A stretch of DNA of 34,662 nucleotides from the NCBI GenBank assembly GCA_048940925.1, contig JBHLOC010000049.1, forward strand, positions 1-34,662, read 5' to 3'. The first letter of the stretch is position 1. Each line of letters starts with the position of its first letter. The translations under genes and the position numbers were made by a program. Shown one piece after another: positions 15,112 through 27,600 of the stretch. The DNA comes from Promethearchaeota archaeon. Lineage in GTDB: Archaea; Asgardarchaeota; Lokiarchaeia; Sigyniarchaeales; SOKP01. The notes below the pieces were generated by a model. That model had not been told where the DNA came from. It saw nothing but the letters and a program-made list of their open reading frames with translations, and did no database searches.

Positions 15112-16590
15112 ATGCGATCGGTTTTAATTGCTAATCGAGGAGAAATTGCGGTTCGGATAATACGTGCATGTCGGTTAAAAAACTTAAGGTCAATTGCTGT
15201 ATTCTGTGACGAAGATAAAGATTCCTTACACGTAAAATTAGCAGATGGAGCTTATGGATTAGGAGAAGAATCAGTTGAGTGTACCTACCTAAATATTCAA
15301 AAATTACTTGAAATAATTGAACGTTCAAGAGTTGATGCAGTTCACCCTGGGTATGGATTTTTAAGTGAAAACGCTGAGTTTGCTCGAGAAGTAATAAAAA
15401 TGGGCAAAATATTTATTGGTCCAAGTCCAGACATTATCGACTTCTTAGGTAACAAAGTTCAAGCGAAAAAGCTTGCCAAAAAAGTAAGTTTACCTGTCTT
15501 ACCAGGTTCAGATGGATTTGTAAGCTCATTTGAAGAAGCTAAATCAGTTGCTGATAAAATTGGATACCCCATAATAATTAAGGCTGCTTTTGGAGGAGGT
15601 GGGAGGGGAATGGAAATCGTAGAATCTGAGGAACATTTAAGGATGGCATTAGAGGGATGTCAATCAATAGCTTTAAAGTTTTTTGGACGCGAAGAATTAT
15701 TAATTGAAAAATCTGTTAACGCCCCCCGTCATGTAGAAATTCAATTTATTGGAGATAATTATGGAAATGTCGTTCATTTAGGGGATCGGGAATGTACGAT
15801 CCAACGATCACATCAAAAGCTTATTGAAGAAGCCCCTTCTTTTTTAACGAGAGAGATTGTAAATGAATTAGGAGAAAAAACATGCTCTTTAGCACGTGAA
15901 TTACATTATTCAAATGTAGGAACCGCTGAATTTCTTTGGAAAAACAATAAGATTTATTTCAATGAGATAAATCCAAGGATTCAAGTTGAACATGTGGTAA
16001 CTGAGATGGTTACTGGATTTGATTTAGTTGAAGAACAATTAAATATTGCTTCAAATAAGCCTTTAGACTTCACACAAGATGATGTTTCATTGAAAGGCCA
16101 CGCAATTGAATATCGAATAAATGCTGAAGACCCAAACAATTCCTTCTTACCTCAAAATGGGAGGATCACACGCCTGATCGTACCAGGTGGTCCAAATGTG
16201 AGATTTGATAGTCATATCTATCCCAATTATGTTATTCCTCATAATTTCGATTCATTAATCGGGAAATTAGTAGTCTGGGGACGAAACAGACGGAGAGCGA
16301 TTAACCTCTCCAAACATGCTTTAAAAGAATTAGCTATCTCAGGCATTAACACGAATTTAGACTTACATAAAGTAATTATTGAAACTAAAGAGTTCAAAAA
16401 AGGGGATTTAACTACTGACTTTTTGAACCGAACAGATGTCACTAACAACTTGAAAGATTTTGAAAGAAAGAAGCTTGCTGCCGTATTTCAAATAGTTAAA
16501 GATCTTAGATATACAATCCAACCAAATAATATTTATTCTAAAAAATCAAATAGATGGCTAGACATGGCTAAAATTGAGCAAGTGCGTTAA
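15112..16590 (+). CDS. accC: Biotin carboxylase subunit of acetyl/propionyl-CoA carboxylase
   Basis: VLIANRGEIAVRIIRAC, HPGYGFLSENA, GGGGRGM, RECTIQRSHQKL, EINPRIQVEH. Confidence 0.97.
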   Translation: MRSVLIANRGEIAVRIIRACRLKNLRSIAVFCDEDKDSLHVKLADGAYGLGEESVECTYLNIQKLLEIIERSRVDAVHPGYGFLSENAEFAREVIKMGKIFIGPSPDIIDFLGNKVQAKKLAKKVSLPVLPGSDGFVSSFEEAKSVADKIGYPIIIKAAFGGGGRGMEIVESEEHLRMALEGCQSIALKFFGREELLIEKSVNAPRHVEIQFIGDNYGNVVHLGDRECTIQRSHQKLIEEAPSFLTREIVNELGEKTCSLARELHYSNVGTAEFLWKNNKIYFNEINPRIQVEHVVTEMVTGFDLVEEQLNIASNKPLDFTQDDVSLKGHAIEYRINAEDPNNSFLPQNGRITRLIVPGGPNVRFDSHIYPNYVIPHNFDSLIGKLVVWGRNRRRAINLSKHALKELAISGINTNLDLHKVIIETKEFKKGDLTTDFLNRTDVTNNLKDFERKKLAAVFQIVKDLRYTIQPNNIYSKKSNRWLDMAKIEQVR

Positions 16591-16668: not shown

Positions 16669-17157
16669 TTAATTTTCTATTTTAAGTAATTGTTGATCTT
16701 GCCTTACATTATCCCCAACATTCACAAAAATTTGAGTTACCTTTCCTTTTATTGGAGATAATATCCTATTTTTCATTTTCATCGCTTCTATTATTAATAT
16801 TAGTTGTTCTTTTTCAACAAGATCTTGTTCTTTAACTAAGATTTGTAAGATTTTTCCTGGAATGGGGGCACGCACAACAATTTTTTTGCCGTGTTGGTTA
16901 TCAGCACTAGTTTCACCTGATTTTAAATAAGGTTTTATTTCAATATCGATTTCTTCCCCTTCTAAAATTAACTTTCCATCAATTAGTTCTAAAGTAAACT
17001 GACAATCCTCAAATATCACCCTATATAGCTTTTCAGTCTCTCGAATTACAATCGGTGAATAAATATGGTCATCAACTTTTAATTTTCCATCATCTAAAGG
17101 AGTGATAATATATTCTCTACCATGAAATAACACCTTTTTTTGCATGATTATTTTCAC
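16669..17157 (-). CDS. accB: Biotin carboxyl carrier protein (ATG at 17145 is a likely start)
   Basis: C-terminal biotinyl domain VRAPIPGKI...IEAMKMKN...P..G.V. Confidence 0.95.
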   Translation of the reverse strand: MKIIMQKKVLFHGREYIITPLDDGKLKVDDHIYSPIVIRETEKLYRVIFEDCQFTLELIDGKLILEGEEIDIEIKPYLKSGETSADNQHGKKIVVRAPIPGKILQILVKEQDLVEKEQLILIIEAMKMKNRILSPIKGKVTQIFVNVGDNVRQDQQLLKIEN

Positions 17158-17962
17158 ATTTTTTGGCTTTGTTGTTTGAAACTAAATGATTTTGAAAGAA
17201 ATCAGTGATCTTTTCACACATGATTTGAAAATGATTTTTATCAGTAAAATTATGGTTTGCACCATCAATTATTTCAATTTTCTTATTTTTAGATTTAACT
17301 CTATTAAAGAGTTGTTGAAAACCATATTCAGGAAATAATGCATCTTTATTCCCTGCAATTAAATAAAATGGTTTTGTTAAATTGGATGCTAATTTTCTAG
17401 GGTTAAATTGCCTAGTTTGTTCTGAATATGCTTCTTTATAATCAACATCTGGAAATCGCATTTCCTTATTACGAGTCAAAGCTCTTATGAAAAATTTAAA
17501 CAATGGATTATTTGGGATAATCTCTGTATCAAAGACGGGTGATCGTATCGCAAGGCATTTCACACGATTATCTCTCACTGTATGGCAAAGAGCCATTGCT
17601 CCTCCAAAACTTTCCCCAAATAAACCAATTTTTAAAGGATCTATTCTGATATGTTTTACTAAGTAATCTATAACTCGTTCAATATTAGCTTGTGCATCAT
17701 AATATGTAAAAATACCAGTACTCATTCTTACTCCTTGATGATCATAAGTAAAATAGGCAATGTTATTCTTAATAAAGTACGGTGCAAATCTATTTTCATC
17801 TTCTTCTGGCGAATTTCCAGGCATCCCATTAACTCGAATGACAAGAGGGACAGGATTCTTAACTTCTGTTTTGAAATCCTTAACCTCAGGTAAATATAGA
17901 ATACTGTGTAAGATCTCTGAACGCACCTTAACTTCTATAACTAATTTTTCCATGTTAAACAC
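17117..17962 (-). CDS. Alpha/beta-fold serine hydrolase; candidate thioesterase or acyl-release enzyme
   Basis: Nucleophile elbow GESFGG, acid AGNKD, His GANH; begins 25 bp after the megasynthase stop. Confidence 0.85.
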   Translation of the reverse strand: MFNMEKLVIEVKVRSEILHSILYLPEVKDFKTEVKNPVPLVIRVNGMPGNSPEEDENRFAPYFIKNNIAYFTYDHQGVRMSTGIFTYYDAQANIERVIDYLVKHIRIDPLKIGLFGESFGGAMALCHTVRDNRVKCLAIRSPVFDTEIIPNNPLFKFFIRALTRNKEMRFPDVDYKEAYSEQTRQFNPRKLASNLTKPFYLIAGNKDALFPEYGFQQLFNRVKSKNKKIEIIDGANHNFTDKNHFQIMCEKITDFFQNHLVSNNKAKKCENNHAKKGVISW

Positions 17963-17987: not shown

Positions 17988-18600
17988 TTAAAGTTCACAA
18001 TAAGATAATACATATTTTTCAGTATATACAGATTTGAGTGTTAATTTCTTAAATCTTTTGGTTAATTCTGATTTACCTTTTTTAGTGATCAGTGAAAACT
18101 TCTTTTGCTTTTCATCAAATCTTAGTTCAAAATCACGAAAATTGACATGAAAACCTTCCCCAATTGCTTTTGAGCATGCTTCCTTGGCAGTCCAATATAT
18201 TGTTCCCAATTTATCATTTTCCGATATAAGCTCTCTTTCTGACTCAGTAAACACTTCTTTATAAAAAGATGGAGAACGTGGTTCAATTAGTTCTAGATCG
18301 ATCCCTACTTGGTTCTTACTAATGATAGCAATGGAAAACTCATGTGAGTGGCTAATTGAAAGATTTATTGGAAGTTTTTGTTTATCTTTCTTTGAATAAT
18401 AGAATGGTTTCCCCTTATTGTTCTTTTGAATTTCAATGTCAAGATAAGAGAAGTTGTTTGAGAATTGCTTTAGATAACATTCTTTTGCGGTTATAATTCC
18501 TGAGAAATATTCAAGCTTTCTTTTCTCATTTTTAAAGCGCTTAGAACCTTCAATCTCGTATTTAGTTAAATGTGTTTCCAAAAATTTATTATCTGATTGA
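17988..18600 (-). other. PKS domain: Sfp-type 4'-phosphopantetheinyl transferase
   Basis: KRKLEYFSG, NNKGKP, NLSISHS, VGIDLE, FTESE, WTAKEACSKAIGEG. Confidence 0.9.
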
Positions 18601-21600
18601 AACTGTAATTTTAATTTTTCAATTGGGAGGATATGAAAAATAGCGGACATTTTTCCATTTTTAAGAAGATAATATTCTTTAAGGGTTCTTAGATAATTTG
18701 TCAGTTTTTCTGAAATGTTTGATGAGAGCGAGGAATGAATAATTTCAAAATTTCCAACTTTGGCGACTATTTCGTTGCTTTCACTTAGGAGCACGCAATT
18801 AAAATAAGAGAGTTCCTCATCTTTTTTCAAAAATTTTGCAACAACGTATTTCGGTTTTTCTTTTGACAATATATCTAATGTTGCAATTTTAGAGGGAAGT
18901 GATAAATGATTGTTGATAATAACATCAAATAACGCCGCTGTTTGGAATATACTCTCAATGGCTAGAGGATCTAGTTGAAAATTATCTCCTTCTCTATTTT
19001 CGGTGAGATTAGTTGTTGGAATATCAACACTTGATATTATTTTTTCATTTTCTAACAGAATTATATTTTTTAAAACCTGGAACTTACTCCCATGGAAAAA
19101 AAGCTCATAAATTTCACTTTTATCGAGAAGAGGTATTAATGGCTCTGATATAGGTTCCTTTTTCCATCTGAATTTTTTACTCGGTTTACCGAGTTTAGCG
19201 TTAAAATGTTCTTTAATTAAAGGTTTTCCTTTCAAAACTAAAGGAAAAGTCTTCGAAAAAAGAGCAATTTCATCATTAGAATTATCATATTTTAGTTCGA
19301 TCTCAACTGATTTGCCTACAGGAATCTTCAAGGGAGTATGAAAGTTAATCTCTGAAATTGAGGTCATAGGCTTCTCAAACAGGTAGTTATAGAATTCAGC
19401 AAAAGTTTCTAAAACCATTACCCCAGGGAATACTGGTTTTTGTTGAATTTGATGATCAAGTAGATAGATGTCAAAATCAGAATTGATTGAATTTGATCCA
19501 ATAATGAAATTTGGTTGATACTCCATTTTGTTTAACATTGGAAAGTTCAATTTGTTAATTGTTTTAGCAACAATAAGTTTTTCTTCGAAAATTCCTAAAT
19601 CTCCACCAACAATAAATTCTCCTTTGAAGCTATTTAGCACTAGCTTTGAAAAGATCTTCACCCCAAGATGTGCAGGAACAGGAACGACTCCTGCTTGAGT
19701 AAGAATTTGCAGTGTTGAACCTCGAGTAGCCATTCCAATATCAGCCCATGCTGTCCAATCAATAGATAAAAATGGGATATTACGCTGAGAATAATCCCAT
19801 GCTAACCTTGATAGATAAGCATTGGCAAACGCATAATCTATTTGGCCTTGATTGCCATAGCGACCTGCTACTGATGAGAATGCAACTATATATTTAACAT
19901 TTTGAATATTGATATACTTTAGTAGATTTAAAAAACCACCTACTTTAACATCTACAACTGTATGAGCCATTTTTAGTTTTTTTTTCAAAAAGCTCTTTGA
20001 TTCCTCTATACCAGCACCGTGAACAATGAATGTTATTGGCTTTTCCAAATTTTCTTGGATTTGTTGGAATGTGCTCTTCATTTTTTCTTTGTCTGTTATA
20101 TCAATAGCATAATATTGGACTTTAAGCCCTTTTATCCTTAATCTTTCAATGTTACGAAGAGTATCTAATTTATCGAGAAAATTCTTCCATTCTCTCTCTA
20201 TCATAACAGGTGTTACCCTTTCTTGTCTTGATCTCAACAAATTAGCTATTTCTTTCTTTTTCTTGTCTAGCATTTCTGGAGTATGAGACAAGTATTCATG
20301 CAAAGAATCATCATAAGGTGCTAACCCAAATAAAATTAGTTCTGGTTTAACATAATTGGTTAGTTTATCGATGCAGGCAAATGTTATTCCTTGTGCTCCC
20401 CCTGTAACTAATAGTACATCCTCTGTTGTTATTAGATATTCTTTCTGTTCTGGAAAATCTCCTAATTTGGTTCTTAGCAAAGTATGTCGAATGCCATCTT
20501 TATAAGCTACTTCCTCTACATCGTCCCAAATTGCGATTTCCTTAATAATCTCATCCGGACTTAATGAGTAAATGAGTTTAATTGGAATTTGAAATTCTCG
20601 ATTTAAAGTTTTGACAAATGCACCTATACTAGCGGAGAGTGCATTGGCTCCCTTTTCCCAACCAAAATAAGTCTCTGAAGCGATCATTGCAATTTTTTCG
20701 ATTGATGGCAAATCTAATCTCTGAAAAATAGTAAATAAACTATCAAAAAAAGCTAAACTTTCATTCGATGAATATTGCTTGTTAGCTGGAATAACTAGAA
20801 TGATAAAATTAAAATCATTTTCTAGGGTTATATTCCTTTGATTATTTTTTAACCTTTCAACAAAATTTAAATTACCAATAATATCGAAAACTTGAGGTTG
20901 TAATCCTAATTTTAGGAGCTTTTCATGCAAATTTATATGATTTGATAATCCTGAATTAATGTTAATGATAAGAGCCTTTTTACCTTCATATTTTGAAATT
21001 TTCTCCAGCTGAGGTAAATTGAAAATTTGTGAAGGAATTACTTGTGAAACATAAATATCTTCTTCTTTTTTAGATCTTTCCAGTGATTGAACATCAACTT
21101 GGTGAGTTTCTAGTCTCTTTTCTGGTAAAGTTGTTGCTTCATTAATATACTGCATAACGAATTCAGCAATTTCATTAGGATTACGTATTTCGGAGATGTT
21201 TATCTCGATAGATTCTCCTACATTGTAATAATCGCGTAATTCTCCGAAAATTTCAGCCTGTTTTACAGTATCTATTCCTAAATCCTCTTCTAAGTCATAA
21301 GTATCCTCAATATCAATAACATCGTAGCCAGTTTTGTCAGCAATAACTCTTTTTATCACGTTTCTTACTTCATTCATATTTATCGACTTATATGTTCCCA
21401 TACCGGTAGTTTTTTGGACAATCTCAATATTGGTATCAATGTTTTGATTACATAAATATTCCTGAATTTTTTGGATAATTTCTTTAATATTTTTTAGTCC
21501 TACTAAATTGATTTCTGTATCTTCAGAAATTTTCAAATAATTACGTAATTCTGCAAAAATTTCTGCCTGCTTAACAGTATCAATTCCTAAATCTTCTTCT

Positions 21601-24600
21601 AGATCAAACATCACATCAATATCTTCCATATCATACCCTGTTTTTTCAGAAATGATTTCAAGTAATTTAGTTTCAAGTAATTTGTCATTAATACTTGGAA
21701 TAGCAGTATCAGAAATAAGATAAGAATTTAAAAACTCGTTAAGCATTAATACAATAGCTTTAATTGTACGATAATCTGAGATGTTAAAGGAATCATCAAC
21801 TTCTAAGTTCCATTTTTCCCGTATTTCTCCAAAAATTTCTGCTTGTTTAACAGTATCAATCCCTAAATCCTCTTCTAAGTCGTATGTCTCCTCGATGTCT
21901 TCTGGATCATATCCGGTCTTAATGGCAATAATGTTTTTAATCTCATTTATTATATCACTAGTTCCAGGTACAGATGATTCATGAGAGACTTCTGTTGGTG
22001 CAGTAATGGGGATTTTTTCAGTGGAAATGGGTTTTGTATTCATTTTTAAAACTCTGCCATCCATGAATAATTCTTTTCCACTTCCACCAACACTTTGTAG
22101 CCATTTTTCGTAGTCTGGATTGCTGAAACGGTTGTCAAACGATGCTAAACGGAATAAAACCATAGCCAACTGAGAACCAAATCCTGCTGCAAAACGTAAG
22201 GCATATTTTTTTCTTTCATTAGAACCTTTAGAAAAATTAAATTTAGTATAATCAGGATCAATTTTATTTAAATTAGCAATAGGTGGAATTATCCCTTTCT
22301 CCATTGATTTAATTGCAACAGCTTCTTCGATTCCTGCTCCCATAGCATGACCAGTATATCCCTTAGTATTAATTATCATCATTTTATAAGCATGCTCTCC
22401 AAATGCCATTTCTAAGGCTTCTAATTCAGATTCGGCGCTTCCACCCCGAGCAGGAGAATATGTTTCATGACTTACAAACATTCCTTCATTTGCTAGTTCC
22501 TTTTTAGTAATACTATGAATTTTTTCCATTTCTGTAACGAATTTTGTTAATTTTTGGCTAATATGGCTTTTATCCAACCGAGTTCCATGAAATGCACTAT
22601 TTGCAAAATATGTACCAAGAATTTCTACAATTGGTTTCACTCCTCTATTTTTTGCTTCAGATTCTTGCTCAATTACAAATGCACTGGCTCCAGCACCCAA
22701 AATAATCCCATTTCTCCCTTCACCAAAGGGGAGAACTGCTTCTTCCCATTGCGATTTAGTTGTAGCAGCCCCACTCGCGAGAAAACCAGCCCCAATCCAT
22801 TGAAAGAGATTTTTGCTTGTAACATTATCACCTGTAATAATTATTACACGTTTGCACCTACCAGTTCGAATCCAATCTTCAGCAATACCGATTGCTTGAG
22901 GTGTAGAAGCACAAGCAGCATTAGTGGAAGTATTTGGACCTTTAGCCTTTATTAGTTGAGCGAACTGAGAATGACCCATCGATAATACTCGAAATAAAAA
23001 TGCTCGATTAAATTCTTTTTCTCCAGCGTTGGAAATTTCTTTAACAAAGTTATCGTATCCTGGAAAGGCTGATGCAAATATGATACCTGTTTCATCTTGT
23101 AAGCTTTCTGGCAAAACCCAATCACTTGGTAATATTTTGCCTGTTGAAGTCTTAAAATTACTTCGGACTAAAGGAATTCCCGCATCTTTTAAAGCTTCAT
23201 ATCCTGCTCCTATTGCTAGTTGGAAGGTGATGTCTAGAGCATTGAGCATTTTCGAATCAAGATGAAAGTCTTCAGTAGGATTAAATTCTCCCATTTGTCC
23301 TGCTAATTGGATAACTTTTGAGATATCATCAATAGCTACAAATTTAGCATTCCCATTTGGGGATTTATCTAACCTTATGACATTTTTTTGAAACAACTGT
23401 TCTTTGTATTCATTACTTACTGGTTCGATTAAATTTATTCCCTTTAAAATATCGTTAATATTTTTATCATCAAAGATTTTTCTATTCTTCCCAGGAAGCC
23501 CAATTCCTACACCGGTAATAACGACTGGAGATGTATTAAAATTTGTACTAATTGTAGAATATTGGCTTTCAAGTAAAGATTGATGTTTATTAAGGAAGTT
23601 CTGAAATCCTTGAATTATAATTGAAGTAAGTAGCTCTTTTTGTTCTTCCAAAAATTCATTAAAAAAAGGAAGTTGCCTGATCTTATTTAAGTTTTTATTT
23701 GAGATAAGTACATCTTGTTTGACACTAGGTTTAGAATCTTTTACTATTTCTTTTTGTAATTGTGCTTCAAAAGAGGGGGATGAAATTTTAATTGCACGAC
23801 TTAAGCTTTTCAGTTTAATTGATTTCAGTTTCTCAATAATCTTAAGAATTTGTTCTTCTTCGGAAGATTTTGGTGAAAGAGTGAAATTTACATAAATTTC
23901 TTTATGTTGTTTCAATATATCTTTAGTAAAAAAGTATAGAGCTTTTTTTGGTCCTATTTCTAAGAATCTTCTACCTCCGTGTTGGTATATATTTTGTATT
24001 TCATCAACCCATCTTACGGGTGAAGTAATTTGCTTGAGTAAAATTTTCTTAATCTCCTCAGGGGATTTAGTGTAAACATCCCCCGTTACGTTGCTAAATA
24101 TTGGAATTTGAGGGGATTTGAACTCAATTGATTTGAGAAATAACTTTAATTTTTCTTCAGCATGAGCAACGAATTTAGTGTGAAATGCATTTGAAACATT
24201 TAACTTTAGAGCCTGTATTCCTTTATCTGAAAATATTTTTACAGCCTCTTCAATAGCCGAAAGCTCTCCAGATATTACAGTCTGAGAGATCGAATTATAA
24301 TTAGATATTGAAACGTCCTCAGTCAAAATTTCATCTAAAATTTCTTCTACTATCTGAGATGATGTAAAAATAGCCGCCATCGAACATTTTATTCCAGTGG
24401 GTAACTCTGACATCGCACTTCCACGAGTGATGACAATTTTTAGAGCATCTTCGAAACTTAGAACCCCCGCAGTAGTTAATGCAGCAAATTCTCCTAAACT
24501 ATGTCCACCTACTATTCCTGGGTTAATACCCTTGGATTTAAGAAGATTTACTAAAGCCATCTCAACGGAATAGATGGCAGGCTGAGTGTATTCCGTTTGT

Positions 24601-27600
24601 CGCAGTTTATTTGAGTTTTCTTCCTCAGTTAAATTTGGTGATCCGAAAATAATCTCAAGTAAATCAAAATCAGCGAACCTTTTACAGATATCATTCGCTT
24701 TATCAAGAGTATTCTTTACTACATGATACTTTTGATATAATTCTTTTGCCATACCGACATACTGGCTTCCTTGACCGCTAAATAAAAAGCAAAGATCAGT
24801 AGGAGGTTTATTAGAAGTTAATTCTGGAGCCCTAACTGGGATTTCATCCTTTATTCCTTCTAATGAAGATGCATTATATAATTGAGGTAAGAATTCTTCA
24901 AGAATTATATGATAGTTTGTTCCTCCAAAACCAAATGAAGATACACCTGCTCTCCTAATCCCATTATCTGGAGTTTCCCAATTTTTAGGCTCGGTGTTTA
25001 CATAAAAAGGGCTTGAATCCCAATCAATAGAAGGATTAGGAGTTAGAAAATTAATTGATGGGGGTAAAATTTTATGATGTAATGCTAATACGGTTTTTAT
25101 AATACCAGCTATACCTGCTGCACTTTTTAAATGCCCGATTTGACTCTTGATGGATCCTATTACAAGTTTTTGGTCTAATTTTCTATTGCTAAAAACTTCT
25201 CTTAATACATTTAATTCAGTAGCGTCACCTACAATGGTAGATGTTCCATGACATTCAAGATATTGAATATCTGATGGTTTAATATTGCTAGATTTTAGAG
25301 CTCGCTCGATAGCTAGTCTTTGACCATCTAGATTTGGAGCTGTGATCCCTTTTCCCTTCCCATCAGAAGATCCGCCATAACCAATAATAATTGCATAAAT
25401 TTTATTCTTGTCCTTGATAGCATCTTCAAGACGCTTTAAAACAATAAATCCAGCTCCTTCACCCATGACAAATCCATTAGCACGAGCATCAAATGGATAA
25501 GTACCATTCTGGGATAAAGCACCAATCTTACAGAACTTAATATATGTTTGGGGATCCATTGAGCTATCAGTTCCTCCTACAAGTGCTGTGTCATAATTTT
25601 TGATAAGTAAACCATTGATTGCTGTATCGATTGCTGCTAAACTTGAGGCGCAAGCAGCATCCGTTGTCATACTTTTACCTGTTAAATTAAATACATTAGC
25701 AATTCTACCTGCTATAATGTTTGACAATTCACCAGGCATAGTATCTTCATTAATAGTCGGAATATCTTTAATAATGCTCTCTTCAAGAAATTGAATAAGA
25801 TTTTCCTTCTCATCTGGATTTAAAATTCTCTGAGAGCTTGCTTCATGGATTCTATACTTAATTTCATTAAAAAGTACTCGTTTATTACTGAGACGTTGGG
25901 CATCTCCTCCTGAGGAGTTACCCACAATCACAGCAATAGGCAATCGCTGCTTTCCATCAGTAGGATAACCAGCATCAATAAGTGCTTCTTCTGCTGTTTT
26001 AATTGCCCAAATCTGGACAAGATCCATTCTTTGAGCCATTTTTGGGGGAATTCGATACTTAATAGATTTGAATTTATATTTTTTAACAAATCCACCGATT
26101 TTTGTATATGTTTTATCAAGAATCGAATGATCTTGATCAAAATAGATTGCAGGATCCCACCTTTCAATAGGGACGTCCATAATTGAATACTTTTTGTTTT
26201 TGATATTGTCCCAGAATTGAGATATATTTTCAGCATCTGGAAAAATACCACCTAATCCTATGATCGCAACCTTATTCCCATACTTTATATCCTTTTTAGC
26301 TTTAATTTCTTCTTTCATAAGCTCACGTCCTGAAGTTATTTCTAGAACATTACTTGACATCCTATTGAAGGAATTCTTTCCTTCTTCGATAACATCGTAA
26401 TGAATTTGAGAAATATTCCTAATAGTTTTTTGTAGAGATATGGAATCACCAGTCATAAAAACACCATTAGTTAGTTGATGATTCCTTGAAGTTGGAATAT
26501 ATTGGGTAGATTCTGCTCCATCAACATGCTTTTCATTCCATATTTCTGCTCTTGAAGCAATTCTTAGGGCTCCTAAATTATCTTCTTCAAACATCTCCTT
26601 TCTTTTTGAAATCGAAATTCCTTGAGCTTTCCGCAAATATTCCTTTTTAACAATTTCACAGGCAAATGAAGATGGAATAACTCTTGCTCGGGTATTCACA
26701 CTTGTACCTATTATCGTTGTAGAGGAGTTATTCAGTAGGAGTTCTTGATAAACTGGGGATAATGCTTGAGAGGTTACAATTTCTTCACTCAGCAGATAGG
26801 CAGTTCCCATTTGAATTCCTGGATTTATCAAATCTAAATGATTCCCAATCATACTAGCTAACATAGCCGTACTGAGTTCATTAATGATACCTCCTGCGAA
26901 AATTATATTTACTTTCTTTTTAAATTCTTTTTTATTCATTTGCAAATATTCTAATATCCTTTCCCAAATAATAAAAGAAGAAAGCATACCAATATGCCCC
27001 CCACATTCATTTCCTTCTAAAATAATAAAATCAAGGTTTTTATCTAGCGCGTTTTTAAACATGGATAAAGTAGGAGTATGGATTAATACAATATTACCTA
27101 ATTTATTAATTTGAACTCCTAGATCGATAGTACCAGCTGCTACTAAGGTAATTTTTGGTCCATGAGTTGAAATTGATTTAAGGTGCTGTTCTCTTCTCGA
27201 TCTTACTACTTCTAAACCAATGATGCCGCTACCATAAGGTTTCTCAGATAATTCACTAACAACCGCTCCAGACAATAAGTTCTCCGCCTCATTTCCTAAT
27301 AAACCCCCAAGAGCAAGTATAGGAAGAGCACCATTTTCTGCTATTTTTTTAGCAAACTCTAATTGATCAGAAATATTTGCCATTGGACCTTGAATGATTG
27401 GATAAGTAATATTTAACTTTTTTGCAAATTCAGAGTTTTTGACAAAAGGCCAGAATGAATGAATATTTTCAATCTGATCTTGGATTATTTTTGGTAAATT
27501 GGAGAGAAAATTCTCTAAGGTTCTAAAATTATTAAAAATGTAATTTGAGAAGGAGATACCATGATCACTGGGCAACCAGGAGTGTTTAGGGTTAGGATCA

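What the first reader, a model, noticed from the sequence alone, without database searches (positions are those of the whole stretch)
21140..21960. All three ACPs carry threonine instead of the invariant phosphopantetheine serine
Seen: DLGIDTVKQAE in every copy (Thr2216, Thr2308, Thr2411 numbered from the 28499 start; codon ACT). Neighbouring synonymous sites and linkers have diverged, so a single sequencing error or recent mutation is unlikely. Established: PfaA-type ACPs read DLGIDSIKRVE, and Ppant is attached to Ser. Inference: either Thr-linked phosphopantetheinylation, which could explain a dedicated co-evolved cis PPTase, or non-carrier ACP-like domains with CoA-bound intermediates. I recall a similar DTVKQ motif in uncharacterised bacterial giant PKS-like proteins, but this needs checking.
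Basis: partly seen in the sequence, partly recalled or inferred. Interest (0 to 1): 0.85.

Follow-up and report, generated by a model that had tools for sequence, protein, structure and literature searches.

The report
Threonine-type acyl carriers, Asgard megasynthase
All three carrier domains of a giant, self-priming fatty-acid/polyketide synthase in an Asgard archaeon have threonine where every studied acyl carrier protein has the serine that holds the phosphopantetheine arm; the same swap is fixed in a very large bacterial and archaeal enzyme family, which points to an undescribed and still unproven threonine-linked form of this cofactor attachment.

Summary
Thr2216, Thr2308 and Thr2411 (all ACT) sit in DLGIDTVKQAE in three old, diverged ACP repeats. 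HMMER alignments and an AF2 model place the Thr at the canonical site, the first residue of helix II.

It is a family trait, not a quirk of this window. Of 1231 ACP domains from the 260 nearest proteins, 935 have Thr and 287 have Ser. No other column is Ser-rich, and 193 Thr-type domains contain no Ser at all. All four Thr codons are used. The motif occurs in at least 599 stretches of species-representative genomes.

Ser and Thr alternate inside single arrays, for example S-T-S in Ca. Heimdallarchaeum aukensis.

The fused Sfp-type PPTase keeps all catalytic residues. It is the only PPTase in this 4.8-Mb genome, and the three Thr-ACPs are the only carriers there.

A conserved cluster surrounds the synthase: BirA, carboxyltransferase, megasynthase, hydrolase, BCCP and biotin carboxylase.

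Best reading (about 0.6): the Thr hydroxyl accepts phosphopantetheine. This is inferred and has not been shown. I found no paper describing it, and E. coli ACP S36T cannot be modified.

This scan has already reported the same trait on at least 8 other genomes.

The parts
17988..28499 (-). Megasynthase ORF, 3503 aa: ER(x2)-KS-AT-KS2-ACPx3-KR-DH-PPTase
   Evidence: Active-site motifs are intact: DAACAS, HGTST, KSQIGH, GHSLG, NAFH, YAFAN, HQIQQKPVFP. The database gene call is 3484 aa, 19 codons shorter.
21747..21953 (-). ACP1 (aa 2183-2251); Thr2216 codon ACT at 21852-21854
   Evidence: AF2 model pLDDT 90.9, helix II starts at the Thr. Foldseek TM 0.8-0.9 to solved ACPs.
21468..21677 (-). ACP2 (aa 2275-2344); Thr2308 codon ACT at 21576-21578
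21156..21371 (-). ACP3 (aa 2377-2448); Thr2411 codon ACT at 21267-21269
17991..18647 (-). Fused Sfp-type phosphopantetheinyl transferase domain (aa 3285-3503) with motifs GIDLE (3399) and WTAKEACSK (3436)
   Evidence: It is the only PPTase found in the genome.
25047..26276 (-). KS1 (aa 742-1151), Cys-His-His
23895..24788 (-). Acyltransferase (aa 1238-1535), GHSLG and NAFH (malonyl-type)
22149..23366 (-). Second KS-like domain (aa ~1712-2117), retains Cys-His-His
   Evidence: alignment to FabF 2gqd
19740..20411 (-). Ketoreductase (aa 2697-2920)
18759..19496 (-). Dehydratase (aa 3002-3247)
26556..28214 (-). Two FabK/PfaD-like (NMO-fold) enoyl-reductase units
   Evidence: TIGR03151 at aa 357-648
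28480..30087 (-). Carboxyltransferase (PccB/AccD-type); overlaps the megasynthase start by 20 nt
   Evidence: synteny conserved
17117..17962 (-). Alpha/beta hydrolase, likely chain release
16669..17157 (-). Biotin carboxyl carrier protein
15112..16590 (+). Biotin carboxylase
30503..31264 (+). Biotin-protein ligase (BirA-like), divergent from the carboxyltransferase

Best explanation
The three domains are genuine acyl carrier domains of an iterative, fully reducing type-I fatty-acid/polyketide synthase. Their phosphopantetheine acceptor is a threonine instead of the textbook serine.

Proposed mechanism (inferred):
1. The fused C-terminal Sfp-type PPTase transfers 4'-phosphopantetheine from CoA to the O-gamma of Thr2216, Thr2308 and Thr2411, giving O-(4'-phosphopantetheinyl)-threonine.
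2. The AT loads malonyl units. These are made by the carboxylase encoded around the synthase (BC, BCCP, CT, with BirA for biotinylation).
3. KS1 and KS2 elongate the chain, and KR, DH and ER reduce it.
4. The adjacent alpha/beta hydrolase releases the product.

The Thr state is an ancient, selected trait of a very large bacterial and archaeal clade of PfaA-like synthases. It comes with co-adapted neighbouring residues: T-V-K-Q, against S-I-K-R in canonical PfaA.

Shown here: the sequence facts, the fold, the conservation, the Ser/Thr interchange, the intact PPTase, and the absence of any other carrier or PPTase in the genome. Inferred: that Thr carries the arm.
For: (1) Position. The Thr aligns to the Ppant Ser of solved ACPs. 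It is the first residue of helix II in a pLDDT-91 model whose best structural matches are ACPs at TM 0.8-0.9.

(2) No alternative site. In 935 Thr-type domains no other column exceeds 24% Ser, and 193 domains contain no Ser at all.

(3) Selection.
- The motif is 100% Thr in 196 of the 260 nearest proteins.
- Thr codons in Asgard genomes are ACA 16, ACT 14, ACC 13 and ACG 7.
- Thr codons across 80 species are ACG 97, ACC 84, ACA 16 and ACT 10.
- The motif occurs in at least 599 stretches of species-representative genomes.

(4) Functional equivalence. Ser and Thr alternate within single arrays served by one PPTase: S-T-S in Ca. Heimdallarchaeum aukensis (AGT/ACA/AGT; L008, L012, L043), S-T-T in L038 and L039, and P0108 and P0116. 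Ser-type domains also nest inside the Thr clade.

(5) The PPTase is intact. H100, D117, K155, E156 and K160 are invariant and E119 nearly invariant across 40 fused PPTases. By my reading of the motifs these correspond to Sfp's catalytic residues (H90, D107, E109, E151, K155); Sfp itself was not in the alignment. Motifs GIDLE and WTAKEACSK are present.

(6) Sole substrate.
- In this 4.8-Mb, about 100% complete genome the only PF01648 hits are the fused PPTase. The only carrier hits are the three Thr-ACPs.
- My own profiles run at E<=10 repeat this result.
- The same pattern appears in Asgard genomes G003, G015, G054, G094, G109 and G123.

(7) The rest of the machine is intact. All KS, AT, KR and DH motifs are present. 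The synthase sits in a conserved self-sufficient cluster with ACC subunits, BirA and a hydrolase in Hodarchaeota and Lokiarchaeota too.
Against: There is no direct evidence of modification.

The only experimental precedent points the other way. E. coli ACP S36T cannot be phosphopantetheinylated and is non-functional (PMC3340395). Reviews describe the acceptor as a conserved serine (PMC7949117).

I found no paper describing Thr-linked phosphopantetheine. The library lacks most subscription journals, so this is not proof that none exists.

No member of the Thr clade has a known product or biochemical study.

In mixed arrays the Ser domains alone could be the active ones.

The megasynthase is patchy among close relatives of this genome: 0 of 4 in the same genus and 2 of 25 in the same family.
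Confidence: 0.6

Rival explanations
1. The ACP-like domains are never phosphopantetheinylated. They act as structural or docking modules, and the synthase works on CoA-bound or otherwise free thioesters.
For: S36T in E. coli ACP blocks modification. Archaea are thought to run ACP-independent fatty-acid chemistry (my own knowledge, not tested here). The Thr-ACPs score only just above the Pfam threshold.
Against: A catalytically intact PPTase is fused to the protein, is conserved across the family, and has no other carrier in the genome. The PPTase/partner recognition motif around the site (DLGID-x-VKQ-AE) is nearly invariant over 935 domains. Ser-type domains are interspersed in the same arrays. 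Tandem carriers in PfaA are throughput devices that need the arm.
Confidence: 0.12
2. The Thr carries a different group, or the arm is attached by different chemistry. Examples would be a CoA-derived variant or a phosphoryl intermediate, so the PPTase homologue would have drifted in donor or acceptor specificity.
For: The co-variation T-V-K-Q against S-I-K-R shows a remodelled local environment. Other carriers, such as CitD and MdcC, use a different CoA-derived group on Ser (my own knowledge).
Against: All Sfp-type catalytic and Mg-binding residues are conserved. The same PPTase must serve Ser-type domains in mixed arrays. KS, AT, KR, DH and ER are standard domains that expect a Ppant thioester.
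Confidence: 0.1
3. Thr is a poor or blocked acceptor used as a regulatory brake. Only occasional Ser-type domains are active, or all-Thr arrays are primed rarely or under special conditions.
For: Mixed S/T arrays exist. Thr is sterically harder for known PPTases.
Against: 196 of 260 related proteins have no Ser-type domain at all. It is hard to see how strict retention of Thr over all four codons across phyla, with 2-8 copies per protein, would be selected for in dead domains.
Confidence: 0.1
4. The arm is attached to another serine in or near the domain, and the Thr is merely structural.
For: The window's ACPs do contain a few serines outside the motif.
Against: Those serines are not aligned between copies. 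No column exceeds 24% Ser, and 193 of 935 Thr-type domains have no Ser. The Thr is exactly at the start of helix II.
Confidence: 0.02

Closest known systems
Tandem ACP domains of PfaA with PPTase PfaE (PUFA synthases of marine gamma-proteobacteria; TIGR02813)
   Same: Best-scoring NCBIfam model. Tandem beads-on-a-string ACPs with an almost identical motif frame, (E)(A/E)DLGID-x-(I/V)K-x-(V/A)E. KS-AT-ACPn-KR-DH core. Dedicated PPTase.
   Different: Ser against Thr at the attachment site, with coupled I to V at +1 and R/K to Q at +3. The score of 885 bits is below the 1010 cut-off. ER, a second Cys-containing KS and the PPTase are fused into one polypeptide. The host is an archaeon.
'Type R' secondary lipid synthase cluster of Shulse & Allen 2011 (PMC3098273): Koribacter, Solibacter, Elusimicrobium, Roseiflexus
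   Same: KS-MAT-(second KS, called 'CLF')-ACP(3-6)-KR with its own PPTase. An ACC subunit gene sits in the Koribacter cluster. The product is unknown.
   Different: Here the PPTase, DH and two ER units are fused, and a full ACC set plus BirA and a hydrolase flank the gene. The paper does not mention threonine or serine at the carrier site. I did not test whether this KS falls in the Type R clade.
Fungal type I FAS alpha subunit (my own knowledge)
   Same: A PPTase fused at the C-terminus for self-priming, and an FMN TIM-barrel enoyl reductase.
   Different: Unrelated overall architecture. A single ACP with Ser acceptor. Not a PfaA-like enzyme.
E. coli ACP S36T mutant (PMC3340395)
   Same: Thr at the exact Ppant position of an ACP.
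   Different: It is an engineered change in an AcpS substrate. It is not modified and is non-functional. Here Thr is natural, ancient and paired with a dedicated Sfp-type PPTase.

Membership tests
Carrier protein (PP-binding, PF00550) | Profile match above the curated cut-off | tested here: met
   26.2, 22.4 and 26.6 bits against 20.8. The margin is narrow, and a phylum-scale run missed them.
Carrier protein (PP-binding, PF00550) | Four-helix ACP fold | tested here: met
   AF2 pLDDT 90.9. Foldseek top 50 hits are all ACPs, TMq 0.71-0.89.
Carrier protein (PP-binding, PF00550) | Serine at the N-terminus of helix II as Ppant acceptor | tested here: not met
   Thr in all three copies
Carrier protein (PP-binding, PF00550) | Holo-form carries 4'-phosphopantetheine | not testable with these tools
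   Needs mass spectrometry
PfaA (TIGR02813) | Score above the NCBIfam cut-off | tested here: not met
   885.1 bits against 1010.1
PfaA (TIGR02813) | Tandem ACPs between AT and KR | tested here: met
   Three ACPs at aa 2183-2448, though a second KS lies between the AT and the ACPs
Type R secondary lipid synthase (Shulse & Allen 2011) | KS-MAT-CLF-ACP(3-6)-KR plus an associated PPTase | tested here: met
   Domain order found. Extras here: fused ER, DH and PPTase; the 'CLF' keeps Cys-His-His.
Type R secondary lipid synthase (Shulse & Allen 2011) | KS falls in the Type R clade of their tree | not tested
   No reference Type R sequences were compared by name
Sfp-type PPTase (PF01648, two half-domains) | Two ACPS repeats and the catalytic residues expected from Sfp (H90, D107, E109, E151, K155) | tested here: met
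   Two PF01648 stretches. Hits to 1qr0 and 4mrt. H100, D117, K155, E156 and K160 invariant and E119 nearly invariant in 40 sequences; the mapping to Sfp numbering is read from the motifs, since Sfp was not in the alignment.
Biotin-dependent acyl-CoA carboxylase | BC, BCCP and CT subunits plus a biotin ligase | tested here: met
   Pfam hits. Synteny conserved. Acetyl- versus propionyl-CoA specificity was not tested.

The most novel reading that the evidence does not exclude
O-(4'-phosphopantetheinyl)-threonine is a natural, widespread post-translational modification. A large clade of PfaA-like megasynthases in many bacterial phyla, Thermoplasmatota and Asgard archaea uses Thr as the arm acceptor, installed by co-evolved Sfp-type PPTases. 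In Asgard archaea this would underpin a self-contained, ACP-dependent type-I fatty-acid synthase.
Probability: 0.58. Interest if true: 0.9.

Novelty: new variant of a known kind. Interest (0 to 1): 0.8.

Why it matters
The serine acceptor of phosphopantetheine is treated as universal for all FAS, PKS and NRPS carrier proteins. It is built into PROSITE-type patterns and annotation rules, and into engineering tools such as Sfp tags.

A large natural family with Thr at that site would have several consequences:
- It would add a new cofactor linkage.
- It would imply PPTases with an altered acceptor pocket, which could serve as orthogonal labelling or priming tools.
- It would explain why these synthases always keep their own PPTase.
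- It would warn that automated pipelines under-call or mis-score these carriers.

In this window it also bears on archaeal lipid biology. An Asgard archaeon encodes a complete unit for malonyl-CoA supply, a type-I synthase and product release. That is relevant to the debate over the origin of fatty-acid membranes in eukaryotes. If the Thr carriers were inactive, the whole conserved cluster would be unexplained.

Tried and rejected
- **Complex prediction** of the PPTase domain with CoA, Mg and ACP1. It gave no verdict: 0.43 against a control at 0.30. I do not use it either way.
- **The look-up of sequencing runs** for read-level or RNA support.
- **Literature.** The motif strings, phrases for Thr phosphopantetheinylation and 'replaced by threonine' with carrier and polyketide terms found nothing relevant. 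Searches joining Asgard with PKS, ACP or PPTase terms found no description of this enzyme. The PPTase review PMC3918677 is not held.
- **Sequencing error or recent mutation.** Rejected: three diverged copies, and the family-wide pattern.
- **Another Ser as the site.** Rejected.
- **Mis-binned contig.** There is no compositional sign of this: GC 0.297 against 0.296, and tetranucleotide rank 38 of 62. The gene is, however, absent from the four same-genus genomes searched.
- **PPTase acceptor-specificity residues.** I did not try to derive them. There are too few Ser-type partners with fused PPTases for a fair comparison.
Full report
**What is there.** Window 17988-28499 (minus strand) is one 3503-aa ORF.

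Pfam and NCBIfam give the following domain order:
- two FabK/PfaD-like enoyl-reductase units
- KS
- malonyl-type AT
- a second KS-like domain
- three PP-binding domains
- KR
- DH
- a two-lobed Sfp-type PPTase

The expected catalytic motifs are all present: DAACAS, HGTST and KSQIGH in the KS; GHSLG and NAFH in the AT; YAFAN in the KR; HQIQQKPVFP in the DH; GIDLE and WTAKEACSK in the PPTase.

**The observation.** DLGIDTVKQAE occurs three times, with Thr at residues 2216, 2308 and 2411. All three codons are ACT, at window 21852-4, 21576-8 and 21267-9.
- The repeat cores share only 69-73% DNA identity. Between 12 and 17 of 29-34 codons for identical residues differ synonymously, including five codons inside the motif. 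The Thr is therefore not an error or a fresh mutation.
- HMMER aligns the Thr to the Ppant serine of PigH and of the B. subtilis and T. maritima ACPs.
- An AF2 model of ACP1 (pLDDT 90.9) begins helix II exactly at the Thr. Its structural neighbours are canonical ACPs at TM 0.8-0.9.

**It is a family trait.** The closest homologues are Asgard proteins (Promethearchaeota, Lokiarchaeota, Hodarchaeota and Thorarchaeota MAGs) with the same architecture. Beyond them, hundreds of bacterial and Thermoplasmatota megasynthases carry arrays of 2-8 ACPs that all read GIDTVKQ(A/V)E.
- I extracted 1231 ACP domains with a profile. Of these, 935 have Thr and 287 have Ser.
- In the Thr class no other column exceeds 24% Ser, and 193 domains have no Ser at all.
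- Thr is coupled to Val at +1 (98%) and Gln at +3 (100%). Ser is coupled to Ile (93%) and Arg/Lys (90%).
The taxa include Myxococcota, Acidobacteriota, Actinomycetota (for example Nonomuraea rosea and an Amycolatopsis sp.), Chloroflexota, Gemmatimonadota, Spirochaetota, Thermoplasmatota and Asgard lineages.
- All four Thr codons are used: ACA 16, ACT 14, ACC 13 and ACG 7 in Asgard loci, and ACG 97, ACC 84, ACA 16 and ACT 10 across 80 species. The amino acid is what is conserved.

**Ser and Thr interchange.** On a tree of 519 representative domains there are about 7 S/T changes, with Ser-type domains nested in the Thr clade. The domains are short, so resolution is limited.

Single arrays mix the two states:
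- S-T-S (AGT/ACA/AGT) in the complete genome of Ca. Heimdallarchaeum aukensis (L043; also L008 and L012)
- S-T-T in two deltaproteobacterial/myxococcal MAGs
- T-T-T-S in L056
- one Ser plus five Thr in two Thermoplasmatota proteins that carry one fused PPTase

AGY and ACY are one substitution apart.

**The PPTase.**
- In an alignment of 40 fused PPTases, H100, D117, K155, E156 and K160 are invariant and E119 is nearly so. By the motifs these are the positions of Sfp's catalytic and Mg-binding residues (H90, D107, E109, E151, K155); Sfp was not itself in the alignment.
- In the window's genome (4.82 Mb, 90 contigs, estimated 100% complete, 8.4% contamination), the only PF01648 matches are this domain. 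The only PF00550 matches are the three Thr-ACPs.
- My own ACP and PPTase profiles, run on the six-frame translation at E<=10, find nothing else.
- The same pattern appears in other Asgard genomes: G003, G015, G054, G094, G109 and G123. Each has a sole PPTase fused to a synthase whose only carriers are Thr-type.
- A conserved, intact enzyme whose only conceivable substrates carry Thr is the strongest indirect argument that Thr is the acceptor.

**Context.** The gene sits in a compact unit:
- carboxyltransferase, overlapping the synthase start by 20 nt
- the megasynthase
- an alpha/beta hydrolase
- BCCP
- a convergent biotin carboxylase
- a divergent biotin ligase

The same order is found in a Hodarchaeota contig. 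It is also found on a 4.36-Mb Lokiarchaeota contig, next to exosome and ribosomal genes. So this is a conserved chromosomal Asgard cluster supplying malonyl units to a fully reducing iterative synthase.

**Comparison with known systems.**
- PfaA (TIGR02813) is the best model but scores below its cut-off, 885 against 1010 bits.
- The nearest described cluster type is 'Type R' of Shulse & Allen: KS-MAT-CLF-ACP(3-6)-KR plus a PPTase, with an ACC gene in Koribacter and an unknown product. That paper does not mention the Thr.
- The nearest experimental datum is negative. E. coli ACP S36T cannot be modified and cannot complement.
- Reviews state that the arm sits on a conserved serine at the helix II N-terminus.
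- I found no paper describing the motif or a Thr-linked arm, and none on this Asgard enzyme.

The most likely mechanism is Thr-O-phosphopantetheinylation by the dedicated PPTase, at about 0.6. The remainder is split between unmodified or regulatory domains and a variant prosthetic group.

The chemistry is unproven. The complex-prediction job gave no verdict, and read data could not be obtained.

This scan has already reported the same trait on at least eight other genomes, with the same 'Type R' comparison. My tests were run independently and agree with those reports. For this genome they add the whole-genome sole-substrate result and the conserved cluster synteny.

Noticed in passing
window 22149-23366 (-): The KS-like domain between the AT and the ACPs keeps Cys-His-His (NAACAS, SHET, GYTGH aligned to the FabF active site). 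It is not a classical chain-length factor, although Shulse & Allen label this position CLF.
   Followed up: partly
window 26556-28442 (-): There are two FabK/PfaD-like ER barrels. The first reads GNEAGGL where the second reads GNECGGH, so one may be non-catalytic.
   Followed up: no
whole genome G000 and relatives: The megasynthase/PPTase is absent from all 4 same-genus genomes searched (94-99% complete) and present in only 2 of 25 same-family genomes. G000 is 4.8 Mb against 3.5-3.6 Mb for its congeners, with 8.4% estimated contamination. Contig C46 is nonetheless compositionally typical of the bin. The cause could be patchy gain and loss or a mixed bin.
   Followed up: partly
L007, L030, L031, L035 (other Asgard genomes): Other Asgard families have stand-alone PPTases (150-190-aa frames). 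Near them are Ser-type carriers: an 82-aa ACP with DLGIDSLSSLE, and ~490-aa open frames with NIGLDS. This is a second, Ser-type carrier system in the phylum.
   Followed up: no
The phylum-scale PF00550 run reported no match in G000, although the 'own' run found all three ACPs. Thr-type ACPs score only 22-27 bits, so automated pipelines may under-call them.
   Followed up: partly
window 28480-28499: The 28499 ATG overlaps the carboxyltransferase gene by 20 nt. The public gene call for this protein is 3484 aa, starting 19 codons downstream, so residue numbers may be offset by 19 from the real start.
   Followed up: no
window 32016-34088 (-); L118 3616-5118: A PAS-domain histidine kinase lies beside the biotin ligase both here and in the Lokiarchaeota locus. 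It may be a conserved regulator of the cluster.
   Followed up: no
L043 (CP084166.1, Ca. Heimdallarchaeum aukensis), L008, L012: An S-T-S carrier array occurs in a complete Asgard genome with one fused PPTase. This is a natural test case for Ser versus Thr priming.
   Followed up: partly
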